Below, in pieces: positions 46,682 through 51,103 of a DNA stretch of 64,000 bases; within the stretch, counting starts at the first letter, position 1, and each line of letters opens with the position of its first letter. The DNA lies in contig DATAWG010000099.1 in NCBI GenBank assembly GCA_036267355.1, positions 90,393 to 154,392 of the forward strand. Reading direction: 5' to 3'. The notes under the pieces are model-generated. The model did no database searches, was not told where the DNA came from, and saw nothing but the letters and a program-made list of their open reading frames with translations. This DNA is from Pirellulales bacterium. Lineage in GTDB: Bacteria > Planctomycetota > Planctomycetia > Pirellulales > DATAWG01. A program made the translations under genes and the position numbers.

Positions 46682-48838
46682 TCAATGCCCGATGCGCATT
46701 TCTTCAGGGCGTAGCGAGCCGTTTCCGCTGACGCGGGCTTCGACCGGCGTGGCGGCTGGATGCAGGGCCAAGAGCCGTTCCTGGCAGCGGTAGGCGACGC
46801 CTCCTTCCGGCGGGCGAAGGTGAACATAGGTGCCGTCGGCTTGCAGAATTCGCGCTTTCACGTTGTCGTTCAAATAAGCCGGCACAATCTCGTGCAGAAT
46901 CCGCTCCTTCAACTCCGGCGATTCAATCGGAAACATAACTTCCACGCGGCGATAAAAATTTCGCGGCATCCAATCGGCGCTCGCCAGATAGATCTGGCAA
47001 TCTTCGTCGGGGCCGAAGACATACACCCGGCTGTGCTCCAAAAACCGATCGACAATGCTGCGCACGCGAATGTTGTCGGAAATGCCCGGCAGCCCCGGGC
47101 GCAAGCAGCAGATGCCGCGAGCTACGAGATCGATCGGCACACCCGCCTGGCTCGCCCGATAAAGCGCTTCGATAATGCGGTGGTCCACCACGGCGTTGGT
47201 CTTGGCGAAAATTCGGGCCGGCCTCCCTTCGCGGGCACGATTGGTTTGTTCTTCGATCAATTGCAGCGTGCGGCGCTGCAAATCGGTGGGGGCCACGAAC
47301 AATCGCCGCCATTGATGGCCTTGCGAATAACCGGTGAGCAAGTTGAACAAGGCCGAGGCGTCGGCGGCGATGTCTTCGTCGGCGGTGAACAGGCCAAGAT
47401 CGGTGTAGAGCAGAGCGGTCGAGGGGTTGTAGTTGCCCGTGCTGAGGTGCACATAGCGGCGCAGCAAGTTTCCCTCTTGCCTCACCACCAGCGACACCTT
47501 GCAATGCGTTTTCAAATCCAAAAAGCCGAACACGACGTGAACGCCGGCACGTTCCATTTGCCGCGCCCAGCTCACGTTGTTCGCTTCGTCGAAACGGGCC
47601 TTCAGCTCGACGAGGGCCGTTACATGCTTGCCGTTTTCCGCCGCGGAAATCAGGGCTCGGGTGACCGGCGAATCGCCGCTGGTACGGTAAAGCGTTTGCT
47701 TGATGGCCAGCACGCGCGGATCGTTCGCCGCCCGGCTGATAAAATCGACCACCGGATCGAAACTGTCGTACGGATGATGCAGCAGGATGTCGCGACGGGC
47801 GATCAATGCAAACAAATCGTCGCCGCGGCGCCGCATCCCGCGCGGCAATTGCGGCGAAAACGGCGGATCGCGCAGGGCGTCGAAATTCGGCAGCTTCGTC
47901 AGCTCGACAAGTGCCGTCAGATCCAGCGGGCCAGGAATCCGGTACACCTCGCTATAACCCTCGGGCACACCGTCGCGAATCGATTCTTCGTCGGTGATCA
48001 ATTCGAGCAATTCGTCGCTGCCGCCGGCGGCAATTTCCAATCGCACCGCTTCGCCGCGTTGCCGGGCCTTGAGCCGATCTTCGATCAGCCGCAACATGTC
48101 GTCGGATTCTTGCTCCAACAGTTCGATATCGCTGTCGCGCGTGATGCGAAAGGTTGTCCACGACAGCACGTCGAACCCGCCGAACAACTCCGGCAATCGA
48201 GCCGAGACGGCCTCCTCTAACAAGATAAATTGCTGGCGATCGCCTTGACCCAGCGCCACGAGCCGCGGCAACACCTGCGGCACCTGCACGACCGCAAACA
48301 GTTGCTTCGGACCCAAGCCGCGCCGCCGCTCGAGAATCGCCGCCAGATAGAGCCCGCGGTTGTGATAGCGCGGACTGGGATGCGCCGGATCGACGGCCAT
48401 CGGCGTGAGGATTGGAAAGGCTCGTTCGCGGAAAAACCGATCGAGCGTTTCCAGTTGTACCGGGTCGAGTTCGCTGTGTTTCAAAAGCGTAACGCCGGCT
48501 TGCGCCAGTTGCGGCAGCACAGCGTCGTTCCAGCAGCGATATTGCGCGGCGACAAGTTCTTGCGTCCGCCGGGCGATGCGCTGCAGTTGCGTGATCGGCC
48601 GCATTCCGTCGGGCGCGAAATCTTGTGGAGCGCCGTCGCCAAATGCCTGCTCACGCAAGCCCGCCACGCGCACCATGAAAAACTCGTCCAAGTTCGAGCT
48701 GAAGATCGAGAGGAATTTGACACGCTCCAGCAGCGGGTTGGTCGGGTCTTCTGCCTCTTCCAACACCCGCGCATTGAACTCCAGCCAACTCATCTCGCGA
48801 TTGACAAACTGCTCAGCCTGAAACGTCTGCTCGAACAT
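46682..48838 (-). CDS. ppk: Polyphosphate kinase 1
   Basis: N-terminal MFEQTFQAEQFVNREMSWLEFNARVLEEA, the conserved Ppk1 box VDRFLEHSRVYVFG, two PLD-like HKD regions and about 720 aa length. Minus ATG 48838; the track ORF starts 48889. Confidence 0.9.
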   Translation of the reverse strand: MFEQTFQAEQFVNREMSWLEFNARVLEEAEDPTNPLLERVKFLSIFSSNLDEFFMVRVAGLREQAFGDGAPQDFAPDGMRPITQLQRIARRTQELVAAQYRCWNDAVLPQLAQAGVTLLKHSELDPVQLETLDRFFRERAFPILTPMAVDPAHPSPRYHNRGLYLAAILERRRGLGPKQLFAVVQVPQVLPRLVALGQGDRQQFILLEEAVSARLPELFGGFDVLSWTTFRITRDSDIELLEQESDDMLRLIEDRLKARQRGEAVRLEIAAGGSDELLELITDEESIRDGVPEGYSEVYRIPGPLDLTALVELTKLPNFDALRDPPFSPQLPRGMRRRGDDLFALIARRDILLHHPYDSFDPVVDFISRAANDPRVLAIKQTLYRTSGDSPVTRALISAAENGKHVTALVELKARFDEANNVSWARQMERAGVHVVFGFLDLKTHCKVSLVVRQEGNLLRRYVHLSTGNYNPSTALLYTDLGLFTADEDIAADASALFNLLTGYSQGHQWRRLFVAPTDLQRRTLQLIEEQTNRAREGRPARIFAKTNAVVDHRIIEALYRASQAGVPIDLVARGICCLRPGLPGISDNIRVRSIVDRFLEHSRVYVFGPDEDCQIYLASADWMPRNFYRRVEVMFPIESPELKERILHEIVPAYLNDNVKARILQADGTYVHLRPPEGGVAYRCQERLLALHPAATPVEARVSGNGSLRPEEMRIGH

Positions 48839-49058
48839 TTTCGCATCTCTGAACCATCGAACGTCGAAAACAGGCCGGATTCCATTCACCGGCCAACTGA
48901 ATCATATGGCCAATTTGCCGAAGGCGGAACCCCGTATGCCGCTGCGCGCAATACCGCAACGATGATCTCATCAGAAACTAATACCTCGCTAATCGGCCAC
49001 GCCCAAATGCAACTATTGACATGCCACAAGCCCGGCGAATATATTTGCGTACACGAAT

Positions 49059-49406
49059 ATGAAGATCCGCCCCGCCAGCGACGTCGATCTCATGTTCCGA
49101 GCGTGCTCGGACCGAACCCGATTGCGCATGCTGTCTTTGCTTCGCGGCGGCGAACGTTGCGTTTGCGATTTGGTCGACACGCTCCGCGTGCCGCAGCCAA
49201 AGGCCTCGCGACATCTGGCCTATCTACGTCGGGCGGGGCTGGTTCGATGCCGCAAGGAAGGCCTCTGGAGCTATTACTGCCTGGCGCCGGCGAAGACCTC
49301 CTTCCACGCCAAGTTGTTGGATTGCCTGAGCTGTTGTTTCGAAGACGTGCCCGAGCGGACCGATGCCGCCCGGCGCTTGGCCGCGCGCGGAAGCCGTTGC
49401 CCATGA
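49059..49406 (+). CDS. arsR: ArsR/SmtB family metalloregulator (arsenic-responsive repressor)
   Basis: DLMFRACSDRTRLRMLSLL...ERCVCDLVDTLRVPQPKASRHLAYLRRAGLV: a winged HTH with the ELCVCDL-type As(III)-binding Cys pair. Overlaps the start of the downstream channel-ArsC gene (operon). Confidence 0.8.
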   Translation: MKIRPASDVDLMFRACSDRTRLRMLSLLRGGERCVCDLVDTLRVPQPKASRHLAYLRRAGLVRCRKEGLWSYYCLAPAKTSFHAKLLDCLSCCFEDVPERTDAARRLAARGSRCP

Positions 49407-49437
49407 ATTTTTTTCTCCATTCGATTTGCCTCAGCGC

Positions 49438-50580
49438 ATGAAAATCCACGCAGCGGAGGCAATCGGCACATTCGCGCTTGTTTTCGCCGGCACGGGCGCG
49501 GTTGTCGTCGACGAACGGACGGGCGGGCAGGTGACTCATGTCGGCGTCGCCTTGACGTTTGGCCTGGTGGTGATGGCGATGATTTACGCCGTCGGCGACA
49601 TTTCCGGCGCCCATCTCAACCCGGCCGTGACTCTCGGATTCTGGTTCGCTCGGCGGCTACCGGGCCGGGCGGTTGCTGCTTATATTCTCAGCCAAGTGAG
49701 CGGCGCATTGGTCGCGAGCGCGTCGTTGCGGGCGATGTTCGGTGCGGGAGACCTCGGCGCGACACTTCCCGCCGGGTCGGTGTGGCAAAGTTTTTTTCTG
49801 GAATTGCTGCTGACGGCTCTGTTGATGTTCGTGATTCTTCGCGTCTCTTCGGGCCCGAAGGAAAAGGGATTGCTGGCGGGCGTTGCGGTCGGCGGCGTCA
49901 TCGCATTTGAGGCTCTCTTCGGTGGACCGATTTCCGGGGCATCGATGAACCCGGCCCGTTCGCTCGCGCCGGCGATCGTGGGTGGTTCTATCAAGGATTT
50001 GTGGGTGTATCTCACCGCGCCGCCGCTTGGCGCGCTGCTCGCCGTCGTGGCATTTTACTGCGTAGGGAGCGCCGACGAACGCAATGCGGCCGGCTCCGAC
50101 TTTGCAAAATCTTCCGTCAGATCCGCCAATCAGGGTGGCTCAATGCAACGCGTCGTGTTTGTCTGCATCGAAAATTCCAATCGTAGCCAAATGGCCGAAG
50201 CCTTCGCACGAATGCTCGGCGGCGTGGAGGCATTTAGCGCGGGATCGCGGCCGTCGGGCCAGGTTAGTCCGAAGGCCATCGCCGCGATGAACGAGCTTGG
50301 CTACGACCTTTCGACGCACCACTCCAAATCGCTTGCCGATCTGCCAGATCTGCCGTTTGATGTCGCCGTCACGATGGGTTGCGGCGACGCTTGTCCGAAT
50401 TTGAAAGCGATGCGGCGCGAGGACTGGAAGATCCCCAATCCCAATGAGCTGTCGCCCGAGCAATTTCGCACGATCCGCGATTTAATCGCCGGTAAGGTCA
50501 ATAAGCTGATTTTCGATCTGCGAAAATCGGATTGCGGGCATTCGCAATGCCCGAGTATACCGGCTAACGAAATGGCATAA
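49438..50580 (+). CDS. Aquaglyceroporin (MIP family) fused to C-terminal LMW-PTP-type arsenate reductase ArsC (channel-enzyme fusion)
   Basis: ATG 49438 (MKIHAAEAIGTFALVFAGTGAV). Two NPA boxes (SGAHLNPAVTLG and GASMNPARSLAP) and six TM helices, then a linker and VVFVCIENSNRSQMAEA (CX5R P-loop of low-molecular-weight phosphatase/ArsC) with downstream redox Cys (CGDAC). Confidence 0.8.
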   Translation: MKIHAAEAIGTFALVFAGTGAVVVDERTGGQVTHVGVALTFGLVVMAMIYAVGDISGAHLNPAVTLGFWFARRLPGRAVAAYILSQVSGALVASASLRAMFGAGDLGATLPAGSVWQSFFLELLLTALLMFVILRVSSGPKEKGLLAGVAVGGVIAFEALFGGPISGASMNPARSLAPAIVGGSIKDLWVYLTAPPLGALLAVVAFYCVGSADERNAAGSDFAKSSVRSANQGGSMQRVVFVCIENSNRSQMAEAFARMLGGVEAFSAGSRPSGQVSPKAIAAMNELGYDLSTHHSKSLADLPDLPFDVAVTMGCGDACPNLKAMRREDWKIPNPNELSPEQFRTIRDLIAGKVNKLIFDLRKSDCGHSQCPSIPANEMA

Positions 50581-50749
50581 GCGGCGGCACGATGACCTCA
50601 GGCGCAGACGCAAGCGTGCCGCCGCGTCTGTCGGGCCATCTGCGGCCGGAACAGCCGATAATCTAATGTTGGGCCGTTTGACGCGACTGGCTATAATCCG
50701 GCCGCTATCAGCCGGGTGGCCGATGCGCTTTTGGCTCCGAGGAGAGAGT

Positions 50750-51103
50750 GAAATGACACGGAAGTTTGCTTTTGTTGCCGCAATCGGAATGTTGCTGGCG
50801 TCGCTCTCGGCGACGCCCGTTCGGGCGGGCGGGGTCCGCGTCGGCGTTGGTATTGGCATCGGAATCCCGGGTCCCTACTGGGGCGGCTATCCCGGCTATT
50901 ACCGTCCCTATTATTATCCGCCCTACGGCTATTACCCCTATTACCCGTACTATCCGTACTACGCTCCGCCGCCGCCGGCCTACGCCCCGGCTCCTGCCCC
51001 GGTTTACGCGGGGCCAGCGCCGGTGTACGCCCAGCCGGCCCCGGTTTACACGCCGGCTCCGGTGCCCCAACAGGTGCCCCCCTATCCGCAGCCGAGCCGT
51101 TAG
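50750..51103 (+). CDS. Secreted Tyr/Pro-rich low-complexity protein
   Basis: ATG 50750 gives MTRKFAFVAAIGMLLASLSATPVRA (signal), then GVGIGIGIPGPYWGGYPGYYRPYYYPPYGYYPYYPYYPYYAPPPPAYAPAPAPVYAGPAPVYAQPAPVYTPAPVPQQVPPYPQPSR. Confidence 0.5.
   Translation, partial: EMTRKFAFVAAIGMLLASLSATPVRAGGVRVGVGIGIGIPGPYWGGYPGYYRPYYYPPYGYYPYYPYYPYYAPPPPAYAPAPAPVYAGPAPVYAQPAPVYTPAPVPQQVPPYPQPSR

What the first reader, a model, noticed from the sequence alone, without database searches (positions are those of the whole stretch)
49059..50580. arsR-regulated aquaglyceroporin::ArsC channel-enzyme fusion
One polypeptide carries a complete MIP channel (two NPA boxes, six TM helices) followed by a low-molecular-weight phosphatase-type arsenate reductase domain (CIENSNRS P-loop). 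It lies immediately downstream of, and overlaps, an ArsR with the CVCDL As(III) site. Fusing the As(III)-permeable channel to the reductase would couple reduction to efflux. Comparable fusions have been reported in a few actinobacteria, so finding one in a Planctomycete-type genome suggests independent fusion or horizontal transfer. No arsB/acr3 or arsA is seen nearby.
Basis: partly seen in the sequence, partly recalled or inferred. Interest (0 to 1): 0.6.

Follow-up and report, generated by a model that had tools for sequence, protein, structure and literature searches.

The report
Arsenic channel fused to arsenate reductase
A Pirellulales (Planctomycetota) genome encodes one protein that joins a plant-NIP-like arsenite channel to an arsenate reductase, under an arsenic-sensing repressor; this is a real but fairly ordinary new example of a channel-enzyme fusion first described in actinobacteria in 2010.

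Summary
One uninterrupted ORF (49438-50580, 380 aa) carries a complete MIP channel (Pfam E 1.6e-48) and a C-terminal LMW-phosphatase-type ArsC (E 9.6e-16). An ArsR with a CVC site lies 31 nt upstream.

- The channel is a NIP-like AqpN with an F-A-A-R filter, not a GlpF-type aquaglyceroporin.
- arsR overlaps only the longest, non-conserved start (49363).
- The reductase has the three-cysteine layout of thioredoxin-coupled Cg_ArsC1' (C243, C315, C319).
- The near-invariant general-acid Asp is Asn here (N334, the only N among 119 sequences).

The fusion is not rare: 37 of the 120 best database hits are fused. It derives from a widespread aqpN-arsC gene pair. In 33 unfused pairs from many phyla, 20 overlap by 4 nt. 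The window's channel half is closest to unfused Pirellulales channels (73-77% identity, against 69% or less for fused ones). That argues for a local, independent fusion with no compositional sign of transfer.

Most likely function: ArsR-controlled, single-protein arsenate detoxification, in which arsenate is reduced at the channel mouth and As(OH)3 leaves passively. It is a new member of a known kind (Wu, Song and Beitz 2010), of moderate interest.

The parts
49016..49045 (+). sigma-70-like promoter of the arsR operon: TTGACA, 18-nt spacer, TATATT
   Evidence: 11 of 12 consensus matches. It is the only promoter-like site in 48800-50800; shuffles give a mean of 0.5.
49040..49059 (.). Operator-like imperfect inverted repeat (TATATTTGCG-TACA-CGAATA) overlapping the -10 hexamer and abutting the arsR ATG
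   Evidence: The same motif, TATATTCGC-N4-5-(G)CGAATA, sits directly before the arsR ATG in L013, L005 and L072, with a variant in L036. A palindrome was also reported. ArsR binding itself is inferred.
49059..49406 (+). arsR: ArsR/SmtB metalloregulator, 115 aa, with C34-V-C36 in the DNA-binding region and a C-terminal C89-x2-C92-C93 motif
   Evidence: Pfam HTH_5 E 3.2e-16. NCBIfam NF033788 scores 87.6 bits against a cut-off of 55. Orthologues precede the channel gene in L013 and L005.
49438..50580 (+). aqpN::arsC fusion gene (380 aa, stop TAA 50578-50580)
   Evidence: One ORF with MIP and LMWPc domains. It is identical to NCBI HEX4000035.1 'aquaporin [Pirellulales bacterium]'.
49438..50064 (+). 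AqpN (NIP-like MIP) channel domain, aa 1-209: NPA boxes at 49618-49626 and 49948-49956; ar/R filter F41 (49558-60), A159 (49912-14), A168 (49939-41), R174 (49957-59)
   Evidence: The best solved relative is rice NIP2;1, E 1.4e-41. The filter residues are near-invariant in 21 fused homologues. The model shows six TM helices and two half-helices.
50065..50142 (+). Linker, aa 210-235, low-confidence and non-conserved; probably a former intergenic spacer
   Evidence: pLDDT is below 50 for residues 222-233. Window 50048-50140 (which includes the linker) has no nucleotide match to the nearest relative L013. The region is hypervariable among fused homologues.
50143..50145 (+). Internal ATG (M236), which aligns with the start codon of stand-alone arsC genes
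   Evidence: Stand-alone ArsCs begin M-x-(K/R)-V-(L/V)-F-V-C. The window reads M236-Q-R-V-V-F-V-C243. Use as an internal start is not shown.
50143..50523 (+). ArsC domain (LMW-phosphatase fold), aa 236-362: P-loop C243-X5-R249-S (50164-50187); C315 (50380-82) and C319 (50392-94) in GCGDACP; N334 (50437-39) at the general-acid Asp position
   Evidence: The best solved relatives are all arsenate reductases: 2L17 at 7.2e-19 and 3T38 at 2.6e-18. Residue conservation was counted over 119 aligned ArsC sequences.
50524..50577 (+). C-terminal tail unique to this protein, aa 363-380 (RKSDCGHSQCPSIPANEMA), containing C-x4-C
   Evidence: It is absent from all aligned homologues. Its function is unknown.

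Best explanation
This is a two-gene, ArsR-controlled arsenate-detoxification module. Its effector is a natural fusion of a NIP-like (AqpN) metalloid channel with a cytoplasmic LMW-phosphatase-type arsenate reductase.

Proposed mechanism:
1. ArsR sits on the inverted repeat that overlaps the -10 box. It leaves when As(III) binds its C34/C36 pair.
2. Arsenate taken up through phosphate systems is attacked by Cys243 in the C-X5-R P-loop of the ArsC domain.
3. The Cys315/Cys319 pair resolves the intermediate, releasing As(III) and forming a disulfide.
4. Thioredoxin most likely re-reduces that disulfide.
5. As(OH)3 is formed at the cytoplasmic mouth of the tetrameric channel and leaves passively down its own gradient through the F-A-A-R pore. 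No ATP or proton gradient is needed.

The fusion arose locally from the widespread, translationally coupled aqpN-arsC gene pair. The channel's stop codon was lost and translation now reads through about 80 nt into the old arsC start (M236).

Shown here: the ORF, the domains, the motifs, the context, the distribution and the relation to unfused pairs.
Inferred: substrate, redox partner, direction of flux, ArsR binding and any kinetic benefit of the fusion.
For: ORF and domains:
- One ORF with MIP and LMWPc domains.
- All significant solved relatives of the C-terminal half are arsenate reductases.

Reductase residues:
- C243, N246, R249, S250 and C319 are invariant, and C315 is present in 92 of 95 ENSNRS-type sequences.
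- C243, C315 and C319 align with C88, C162 and C166 of 3T38. PMC6514093 names these as the catalytic cysteines of thioredoxin-dependent Cg_ArsC1'.

Channel identity:
- NIP2;1 is the best solved relative.
- The FAAR filter is that of bacterial NIP-like channels.
- MIP termini are cytoplasmic (established family knowledge), so the reductase faces the cytoplasm.

Regulation:
- arsR lies upstream, behind a strong promoter and an inverted repeat conserved in four related loci.
- The closest fused homologue, P0002, has the same arsR-fusion arrangement.

Ars context of the parts:
- aqpN followed by arsC is tightly linked in 33 loci from many phyla, with a median gap of -4 nt.
- The pair also occurs on plasmids as arsR-arsC-aquaporin-arsC.
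- Stand-alone ENSNRS-type ArsCs sit in arsR/arsM-like clusters.

Reality of the fusion:
- 37 fused clusters, one in a complete genome.
- Identical sequence in three database sources.

Precedent:
- Actinobacterial MIP-ArsC fusions confer arsenate resistance (Wu et al. 2010, as summarised in PMC9775063, PMC6205960 and PMC12838822).
Against: - N334 replaces the Asp of the D-P motif. That position is D in 116 of 119 ArsC sequences, C in two, and N only here. In LMWP-type ArsCs this Asp is regarded as the general acid (PMC9807832), so the reductase may be slow or impaired.
- No NCBIfam ArsC equivalog reaches its cut-off. The best is TIGR02689 at 79.9 bits against 157.6. The ENSNRS subclass is therefore uncharacterised in these libraries.
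- No activity, transport or regulation data exist for this protein.
- A passive channel would also admit external As(III).
- Most fused homologues examined (4 of 6 loci) have no arsR or other ars neighbour.
Confidence: 0.75

Rival explanations
1. The protein is mainly an As(III)/metalloid channel and the fused ArsC domain is catalytically crippled by the Asp-to-Asn change. Under this reading the domain is a decaying remnant, or at most an arsenate- or arsenite-binding appendage. Arsenate reduction would be done by another enzyme encoded elsewhere in the genome.
For: N334 is the only Asn among 119 aligned ArsC sequences at the general-acid position. The catalytic role of that Asp is given in PMC9807832. 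The nearest relative, L013, carries two separate arsC genes of different types, so redundancy is common.
Against: Every other catalytic residue is intact, and the domain is 73-74% identical to its nearest relatives with no other sign of decay. Two fused homologues carry Cys at the same position, so the family tolerates change there. In arsenate reduction the leaving group is hydroxide or water, so dependence on the acid may be smaller than in phosphatases; this last point is inference.
Confidence: 0.12
2. The ENSNRS-type LMW-phosphatase domain is not an arsenate reductase. It would reduce another pentavalent species, such as antimonate or methylarsenate, whose trivalent product leaves through the AqpN pore.
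For: No curated ArsC equivalog model is matched above its cut-off. The P-loop C-[VI]-E-N-S-N-R-S differs from characterised ArsCs. Stand-alone members sit next to ArsM-like methyltransferases, and one homologue is a methyltransferase-AqpN-ArsC triple fusion.
Against: All solved relatives are arsenate reductases, with no other enzyme in the hit list above 1e-4. The cysteine triad matches a characterised arsenate reductase. NCBI's pipeline names the gene downstream of aqpN in the plasmid pair 'arsenate reductase ArsC'; its P-loop subclass was not checked here.
Confidence: 0.07
3. The fusion is an assembly or sequencing artefact. The organism would really have separate aqpN and arsC genes, as most relatives do.
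For: The unfused pair is the norm: none of 33 pairs from species-representative genomes is fused. Only 2 of the 150 best 50%-cluster representatives are full-length fusions. The window comes from a metagenome-assembled genome.
Against: The join is a 26-aa in-frame linker, not a single-base slip at a 4-nt overlap. The sequence is identical in NCBI, JGI and Logan entries, although these may share raw data. There are 36 other fused clusters, one in the complete Limnoglobus roseus genome.
Confidence: 0.03
4. The C-terminal domain is a genuine protein-tyrosine phosphatase that regulates the channel, unrelated to arsenic.
For: The Pfam family is LMWPc, and JGI annotates some homologues as protein-tyrosine-phosphatase.
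Against: The second cysteine pair, the arsR neighbour, the ars-cluster context of relatives and the exclusively ArsC hits among solved structures all point to arsenic.
Confidence: 0.03

Closest known systems
Actinobacterial MIP-ArsC channel-enzyme fusions (Salinispora tropica, Frankia alni; Wu, Song and Beitz, J Biol Chem 2010)
   Same: Same architecture: an N-terminal MIP channel and a C-terminal LMW-phosphatase-type arsenate reductase in one polypeptide. Same proposed logic: the permeant is made at the pore and leaves passively, giving single-gene arsenate resistance. From my memory of the abstract, the characterised reductase domain couples to thioredoxin, which matches the cysteine layout found here.
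   Different: The published channels are described as aquaglyceroporin-type or aquaglyceroporin-derived. The channel here is NIP-like AqpN with a FAAR filter. The host phylum is Planctomycetota, not Actinomycetota. The P-loop subclass is ENSNRS. The origin is independent, from a local unfused pair. I could not obtain the actinobacterial sequences, so the difference in channel class rests on the literature's wording and not on an alignment made here.
Mycobacterium tuberculosis ACR3-ArsC fusion (Rv2643)
   Same: An arsenite exporter fused to an LMWP-type, thioredoxin-class ArsC.
   Different: The membrane part there is an ACR3 secondary transporter, not a passive MIP channel.
Unfused aqpN-arsC gene pairs in ars clusters; AqpN channels in ars operons (Pommerrenig et al., New Phytol 2020, not readable here); the Sinorhizobium meliloti AqpS/ArsC pathway
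   Same: Same two components, in the same order, with the same regulator. The pair is found in many phyla and on plasmids, usually with a 4-nt start/stop overlap. The nearest relative, L013, has arsR-aqpN-arsC-pstS-like-arsC.
   Different: In those cases the two proteins are separate. Here the stop codon is gone and a 26-aa linker joins them.
Corynebacterium glutamicum Cg_ArsC1' (PDB 3T38), a thioredoxin-dependent arsenate reductase
   Same: C-X5-R P-loop plus the TMGCGDxCP motif. C88, C162 and C166 align with C243, C315 and C319.
   Different: Cg_ArsC1' carries an N-terminal ArsR-like extension and not a channel. Its P-loop is CVHNAGRS. It keeps the Asp of the D-P motif, which is Asn here.
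Rice NIP2;1 / Lsi1 (PDB 7CJS, 7NL4) and plant NIPs
   Same: It is the closest solved relative of the channel half (E 1.4e-41). Both belong to the NIP/AqpN lineage of metalloid channels.
   Different: The Lsi1 filter is G-S-G-R (silicic acid). The filter here is F-A-A-R, the bacterial and early-plant type.

Membership tests
MIP / aquaporin superfamily (PF00230) | Profile match above the curated threshold; six transmembrane helices with two NPA half-helices | tested here: met
   165.8 bits against a cut-off of 25. NPA boxes at residues 61 and 171. The model has helices 2-28, 34-52, 76-101, 115-138, 141-166 and 188-209, plus half-helices 62-70 and 172-182.
AqpN / NIP-like grade of prokaryotic MIPs | Closer to NIPs than to AqpZ, AqpM or GlpF; ar/R filter F-A-A-R | tested here: met
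   NIP2;1 scores 146 bits, AqpM 96, AqpZ about 88 and GlpF 72 (partial match). The filter is F41/A159/A168/R174, near-invariant in homologues. FAAR is stated to be the bacterial NIP filter in PMC3355642. No rooted phylogeny with reference sets was made.
   GlpF is the weakest prokaryotic match and aligns only to residues 6-99. NCBIfam aquaglyceroporin Gla scores 49.8 bits against a cut-off of 400. The GlpF filter composition is from my own knowledge.
LMW-phosphatase-type arsenate reductase (ArsC, PF01451 fold) | C-X5-R-(S/T) P-loop with Asn at the fourth position | tested here: met
   C243-I-E-N246-S-N-R249-S250. C, N, R and S are invariant in 119 sequences.
LMW-phosphatase-type arsenate reductase (ArsC, PF01451 fold) | Resolving cysteine pair for the disulfide cascade | tested here: met
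   C315 and C319 in GCGDACP align with C162 and C166 of thioredoxin-dependent Cg_ArsC1'.
LMW-phosphatase-type arsenate reductase (ArsC, PF01451 fold) | General-acid Asp of the D-P motif | tested here: not met
   N334-P335. The position is D in 116 of 119 aligned sequences. The role of the Asp is given in PMC9807832.
LMW-phosphatase-type arsenate reductase (ArsC, PF01451 fold) | Arsenate reductase activity and identity of the reductant | not testable with these tools
   This needs an enzyme assay. No NCBIfam equivalog reaches its cut-off.
Channel-enzyme fusions of Wu, Song and Beitz 2010 | MIP channel and ArsC in one polypeptide, with the reductase at the C-terminus | tested here: met
   the sequence is identical in three database entries.
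Channel-enzyme fusions of Wu, Song and Beitz 2010 | Common descent with the actinobacterial fusions | tested here: inconclusive
   The window's channel half is nearest to unfused Pirellulales channels, and fused forms are scattered in a neighbour-joining tree. Fused proteins carry at least three different ArsC subclasses. The Salinispora and Frankia sequences themselves could not be retrieved.
Channel-enzyme fusions of Wu, Song and Beitz 2010 | Confers arsenate resistance as a single gene | not testable with these tools
   This needs a complementation experiment.
As(III)-responsive ArsR (R773 type) | ArsR/SmtB winged helix with a C-V-C pair in the DNA-binding region | tested here: met
   HTH_5 E 3.2e-16 and NF033788 above its cut-off. 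PRK10141 scores 72.5 bits against 97, below its cut-off. C34-V-C36-D-L is read directly from the sequence.
As(III)-responsive ArsR (R773 type) | Operator upstream of its own operon; release by As(III) | tested here: inconclusive
   A conserved inverted repeat overlaps the -10 box in five loci. Binding and induction were not testable.

The most novel reading that the evidence does not exclude
The ENSNRS subclass of LMW-phosphatase 'ArsC' has hundreds of members in species-representative genomes and matches no curated equivalog. It may not be an ordinary arsenate reductase. Together with AqpN it could form a reduce-and-release system for another pentavalent metalloid species, such as methylarsenate or antimonate. 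In this particular protein, the Asn at the general-acid position might mark a shift in substrate or mechanism, or a binding or gating role for the domain.
Probability: 0.08. Interest if true: 0.6.

Novelty: new member of a known kind. Interest (0 to 1): 0.33.

Why it matters
The finding extends the channel-enzyme fusion idea. The literature I could search still attributes this idea to 'certain actinobacteria' as late as 2026. Here it appears in Planctomycetota and in the NIP-like AqpN lineage that gave rise to plant metalloid channels.

The fusion is a recurrent outcome of a conserved, translationally coupled gene pair. That makes fused and unfused natural variants available side by side. They could be used to test whether tethering an enzyme to a passive channel really speeds detoxification.

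Practically, these proteins are under-annotated in public databases as plain 'aquaporin'. Arsenic-gene surveys that look for arsC, acr3 or arsB would misjudge such genomes.

None of this overturns current understanding.

Tried and rejected
- I could not read Wu et al. 2010 (PMC3000990) or Pommerrenig et al. 2020 (10.1111/nph.16217); neither is held. Statements about them come from citing reviews or from my memory and are marked as such.
- I tried to recover the Salinispora and Frankia fusion proteins by searching with P0048, a fused protein with an actinobacterial-type ArsC. This returned only unnamed metagenome proteins, so there is no direct comparison with the published fusions.
- The genome-contig scan was intended to count fused genes by phylum. 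ORF analysis showed that its 'full-length' matches are separate adjacent genes. I rejected my first reading that the fusion itself is widespread in cultured or representative genomes.
- The first neighbour-joining tree run timed out and was rerun with fewer sequences. That tree has no support values, so I rely mainly on identities and on the different ArsC subclasses.
- Recent horizontal transfer: GC is 58-63% across the module, like its flanks. I found no mobile-element gene in the Pfam scans of the window's long ORFs. Not supported.
- A functional link to the divergent ppk1 neighbour: ppk1 is not found beside the module in L013 or L005. I treat it as coincidence.
- The terminator scan after the gene found nothing beyond chance.
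- I did not run fold searches on the model, because the sequence matches to solved structures were already decisive.
Full report
**1. What is in the sequence**

The six-frame ORF list shows a single open frame from 49363 to 50580 on the + strand, with no stop or frame change. All homologues begin at the equivalent of ATG 49438 (M-K/R-x-L-A-A-E...). An identical 380-aa protein is deposited as HEX4000035.1, 'aquaporin [Pirellulales bacterium]'. The 25-residue extension from 49363 is not conserved. I therefore take 49438-50580 as the gene.

Pfam finds MIP (E 1.6e-48) over the first 205 residues or so, and LMWPc (E 9.6e-16) over the last 120 or so.

Upstream, 49059-49406 encodes a 115-aa ArsR/SmtB regulator. 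HTH_5 scores E 3.2e-16 and NF033788 is above its cut-off. It carries C34-V-C36-D-L. With the conserved start there is a 31-nt gap between the two genes, so the 'overlap' in the finding applies only to the longest ORF.

Pfam scans of every long ORF in the 64-kb window found no other arsenic gene. They found housekeeping and typical planctomycete genes: ppk1, tsaD, recG, ligA, an RND pump and a DUF1559 protein.

**2. The channel half**

Against solved structures, the best match by far is rice NIP2;1/Lsi1 (E 1.4e-41). AqpM scores 2.8e-26 and AqpZ about 1e-24. GlpF scores 5e-19 and aligns over residues 6-99 only.

I placed the four aromatic/arginine filter positions by their fixed offsets from the NPA boxes: N-20, N-12, N-3 and N+3. 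I checked these offsets on Lsi1 G88/S207/G216/R222 and AqpZ F43/H174/T183/R189, whose numbering is from my own knowledge. This gives F41, A159, A168 and R174. These four residues are invariant or near-invariant in 21 fused homologues.

FAAR is described as the filter of bacterial NIP-like channels and of the earliest plant NIPs (PMC3355642; PMC10716587). Prokaryotic MIPs are divided into AqpM, AqpN, AqpZ and GlpF grades (PMC8355241; bioRxiv 10.1101/351064). This one is AqpN, not a GlpF-type aquaglyceroporin.

From memory of the abstract of Pommerrenig et al. 2020, which is not held here: aqpN genes lie prevalently in ars operons, and AqpN channels pass arsenite and boric acid but little water.

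**3. The reductase half**

Thirteen of the 15 solved-structure hits with E of 1e-3 or better, including all below 1e-8, are arsenate reductases. The best are Synechocystis ArsC 2L17 (7.2e-19) and Corynebacterium glutamicum Cg_ArsC1' 3T38 (2.6e-18).

In an alignment of 119 ArsC domains from related loci and proteins:
- The nucleophile C243, N246, R249 and S250 are invariant.
- C319 is invariant within the ENSNRS subclass.
- C315 is present in 92 of 95 members of that subclass.

The motif TMGCGDxCP is shared with Cg_ArsC1'. Its catalytic cysteines C88, C162 and C166 and its thioredoxin dependence are stated in PMC6514093. These align with C243, C315 and C319. I therefore infer thioredoxin coupling.

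One feature is not met. The Asp of the D-P motif is regarded as the general acid (PMC9807832). It is D in 116 of 119 sequences and C in two, and it is Asn (AAT, 50437-50439) only in this protein. The same residue appears in the two other database copies. This is the main caveat on activity.

No NCBIfam ArsC equivalog reaches its cut-off, so the C-[VI]-E-N-S-N-R-S subclass is uncharacterised in these libraries. It is nevertheless common.

**4. Structure**

An AlphaFold2 model built on 21 homologues has mean pLDDT 81.3. It shows six transmembrane helices and two half-helices, a Rossmann-like alpha/beta domain from residue 237, and a low-confidence linker (pLDDT below 50 for residues 222-233). 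Both MIP termini are cytoplasmic (family knowledge), so the reductase lies at the cytoplasmic mouth.

**5. Regulation**

The only promoter-like site in 48800-50800 is TTGACA-18-TATATT at 49016-49045, with 11 of 12 consensus matches.

Directly before the arsR ATG, the window reads TATATTTGCG-TACA-CGAATA. The corresponding regions of four related arsR genes read as follows:
- L013: TATATTCGC-ttgca-
- L005: TATATTCGC-cgaaa-CGAATA
- L072: TATATTCGC-ttaa-GCGAATA
- L036: TATATGCGC-cggggt-GCATATA

A conserved inverted repeat that overlaps the -10 box is the expected form of an autoregulated ArsR operator. Binding itself is inferred.

**6. How common the fusion is, and where it came from**

In the 5.8-billion-protein collection, 37 of the 120 best hits carry both domains at 48-66% identity. 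One is from the complete genome of Limnoglobus roseus. The remaining hits are stand-alone channels that are 64-78% identical over the channel half.

The scan of species-representative genomes at first looked like many full-length matches in many phyla. ORF analysis showed that these are two adjacent genes, not one. In 33 aqpN-then-arsC pairs, 20 have the 4-nt start/stop overlap typical of translational coupling, and the median gap is -4 nt. The pairs come from Planctomycetota, Bacteroidota, Verrucomicrobiota, Acidobacteriota, Chloroflexota, Actinomycetota, Proteobacteria and others.

Further evidence on distribution:
- The pair also occurs on plasmids. Deinococcus aquaticus pDATS02 carries arsR-arsC-aquaporin-arsC beside a Tn3 transposase.
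- Among 50%-identity cluster representatives, only 2 of the best 150 are full-length fusions.
- Fused proteins carry at least three different ArsC subclasses: ENSNRS; CIHNSARS/CTHNSARS with a VCD...CP layout; and CVQNAGRS.
- In a neighbour-joining tree of channel halves, fused proteins fall in ten or more separate places among unfused ones (no support values).
- Ten of 32 fused proteins have an unfused nearest neighbour.

The fusion has therefore arisen repeatedly, or has been undone repeatedly. Fission cannot be excluded.

**7. Origin of this particular fusion**

The window's channel half is 73-77% identical to at least 14 unfused channels and at most 69% identical to any fused one.

The nearest species-representative genome is L013, another Pirellulales MAG. 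It has arsR, aqpN, a thioredoxin-type arsC (CIGNSCRS, 4-nt overlap), a PstS-like binding protein and an ENSNRS-type arsC, all as separate genes.

Nucleotide similarity between the window and L013:
- Window 49092-50047 matches L013 arsR-aqpN at 73%.
- Window 50141-50388 matches the distal arsC of L013 at 76%.
- The 93 nt between these two blocks match nothing.

M236 aligns with the start codon of stand-alone arsC genes. The simplest reading is that the aqpN stop codon was lost and translation reads through a short spacer into arsC. This may have followed loss of the intervening genes.

The closest fused homologue, P0002, has the same arsR-fusion arrangement. Its linker is not alignable with the window's. 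Its channel half scores lower against the window than that of L013 does (275 against 322 bits).

GC content across the module (58-63%) matches the flanks. I see no sign of recent transfer.

**8. Mechanism, with status of each step**

- ArsR represses the operon and As(III) derepresses it. Inferred from motif and operator.
- ArsC domain: Cys243 attacks arsenate, C315/C319 resolve the intermediate, and thioredoxin recycles the enzyme. Inferred from homology, and weakened by N334.
- As(OH)3 exits through the FAAR pore down its gradient. Inferred from family data.
- Tethering four reductase domains to a tetrameric channel raises the local As(III) concentration at the pore. This concept comes from Wu et al. 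2010, as summarised in PMC9775063 and PMC12838822.
- The absence of acr3, arsB and arsA from the window is consistent with a self-sufficient module. The rest of the genome was not seen.

**9. Comparison with what is known, and verdict**

The kind is known. MIP-ArsC fusions from Salinispora and Frankia, and the ACR3-ArsC fusion of M. tuberculosis, were described in 2010. Reviews from 2018, 2022 and 2026 still cite only actinobacteria.

This case differs in four ways:
- channel grade (AqpN; the published ones are described as aquaglyceroporin type);
- reductase subclass;
- host phylum;
- independent origin.

I could not align it with the published proteins, so the channel-class contrast rests on the literature's wording.

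I rate it a new member of a known kind. It is real and correctly spotted, and modestly interesting. The interest lies mainly in the recurrent-fusion pattern and in the Asp-to-Asn change at the general-acid position.

Noticed in passing
L007 6001-7755 (protein P0025): A 584-aa triple fusion: a SAM-dependent methyltransferase (ArsM-like Pfam set), an AqpN channel and an ENSNRS-type ArsC in one ORF on a metagenome contig.
   Followed up: partly
proteins P0284 and P0279: Further three-domain architectures. P0284 is MIP + GNAT acetyltransferase + LMWPc (444 aa). P0279 is MIP + PF21234 + LMWPc (430 aa).
   Followed up: no
L013 5159-6217: The nearest relative's ars cluster contains a PstS-like periplasmic phosphate-binding protein (PBP_like_2, E 1.2e-41) between two arsC genes of different subclasses. 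This may be an arsenate/phosphate discrimination component.
   Followed up: partly
window 49323-49340 and 49398-49400 (ArsR C89, C92, C93, C114): Besides the C-V-C pair, ArsR has a C-terminal C-x2-C-C motif that is conserved in the ArsRs of L013 and L005 and partly (C-x3-C) in L072. L072 has lost the second Cys of the C-V-C pair (CVGDL). This suggests a second or alternative metalloid site.
   Followed up: no
window 50666-51103 (+); likely start ATG 50754: The small ORF just downstream of the fusion encodes a signal-peptide-like N-terminus followed by a Tyr/Pro-rich low-complexity tail (YYPPYGYYPYYPYYPYYAPPPP...). It has no Pfam match and could be co-transcribed.
   Followed up: no
window 46682-48889 (-): Polyphosphate kinase ppk1 is the divergent neighbour of arsR. 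A phosphate-metabolism gene beside an arsenate module is suggestive, but ppk1 is not found next to the module in L013 or L005.
   Followed up: partly
window 50524-50577: The fusion protein ends in an 18-aa tail with C-G-H-S-Q-C that no homologue has. It is an extra vicinal-type cysteine pair of unknown role.
   Followed up: no
L082 2185-4390 and L062 2770-4387: In Bacteroidota, stand-alone ENSNRS-type ArsC genes sit in clusters of arsR, an ArsM-like methyltransferase, in L082 a GNAT acetyltransferase, and arsC, without a channel gene next to them.
   Followed up: partly
L088 3670-5578 (Deinococcus aquaticus plasmid pDATS02): An arsR-arsC-aquaporin-arsC operon with a 4-nt overlap between the aquaporin gene and the second arsC. 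It lies about 1.3 kb from a Tn3-family transposase, so the pair is on mobile DNA.
   Followed up: partly
proteins P0150, P0189, P0206, P0239: Very long proteins (928-1459 aa) in the representative library contain four to six separate MIP-like stretches.
   Followed up: no
L001 6001-7056 (Limnoglobus roseus fusion, P0022): This fused protein has R-R-G-D-E-C-P instead of G-C-G-D-x-C-P, so it lacks the first resolving cysteine. It also has no arsR or ars neighbour; it sits beside an RND efflux operon.
   Followed up: partly
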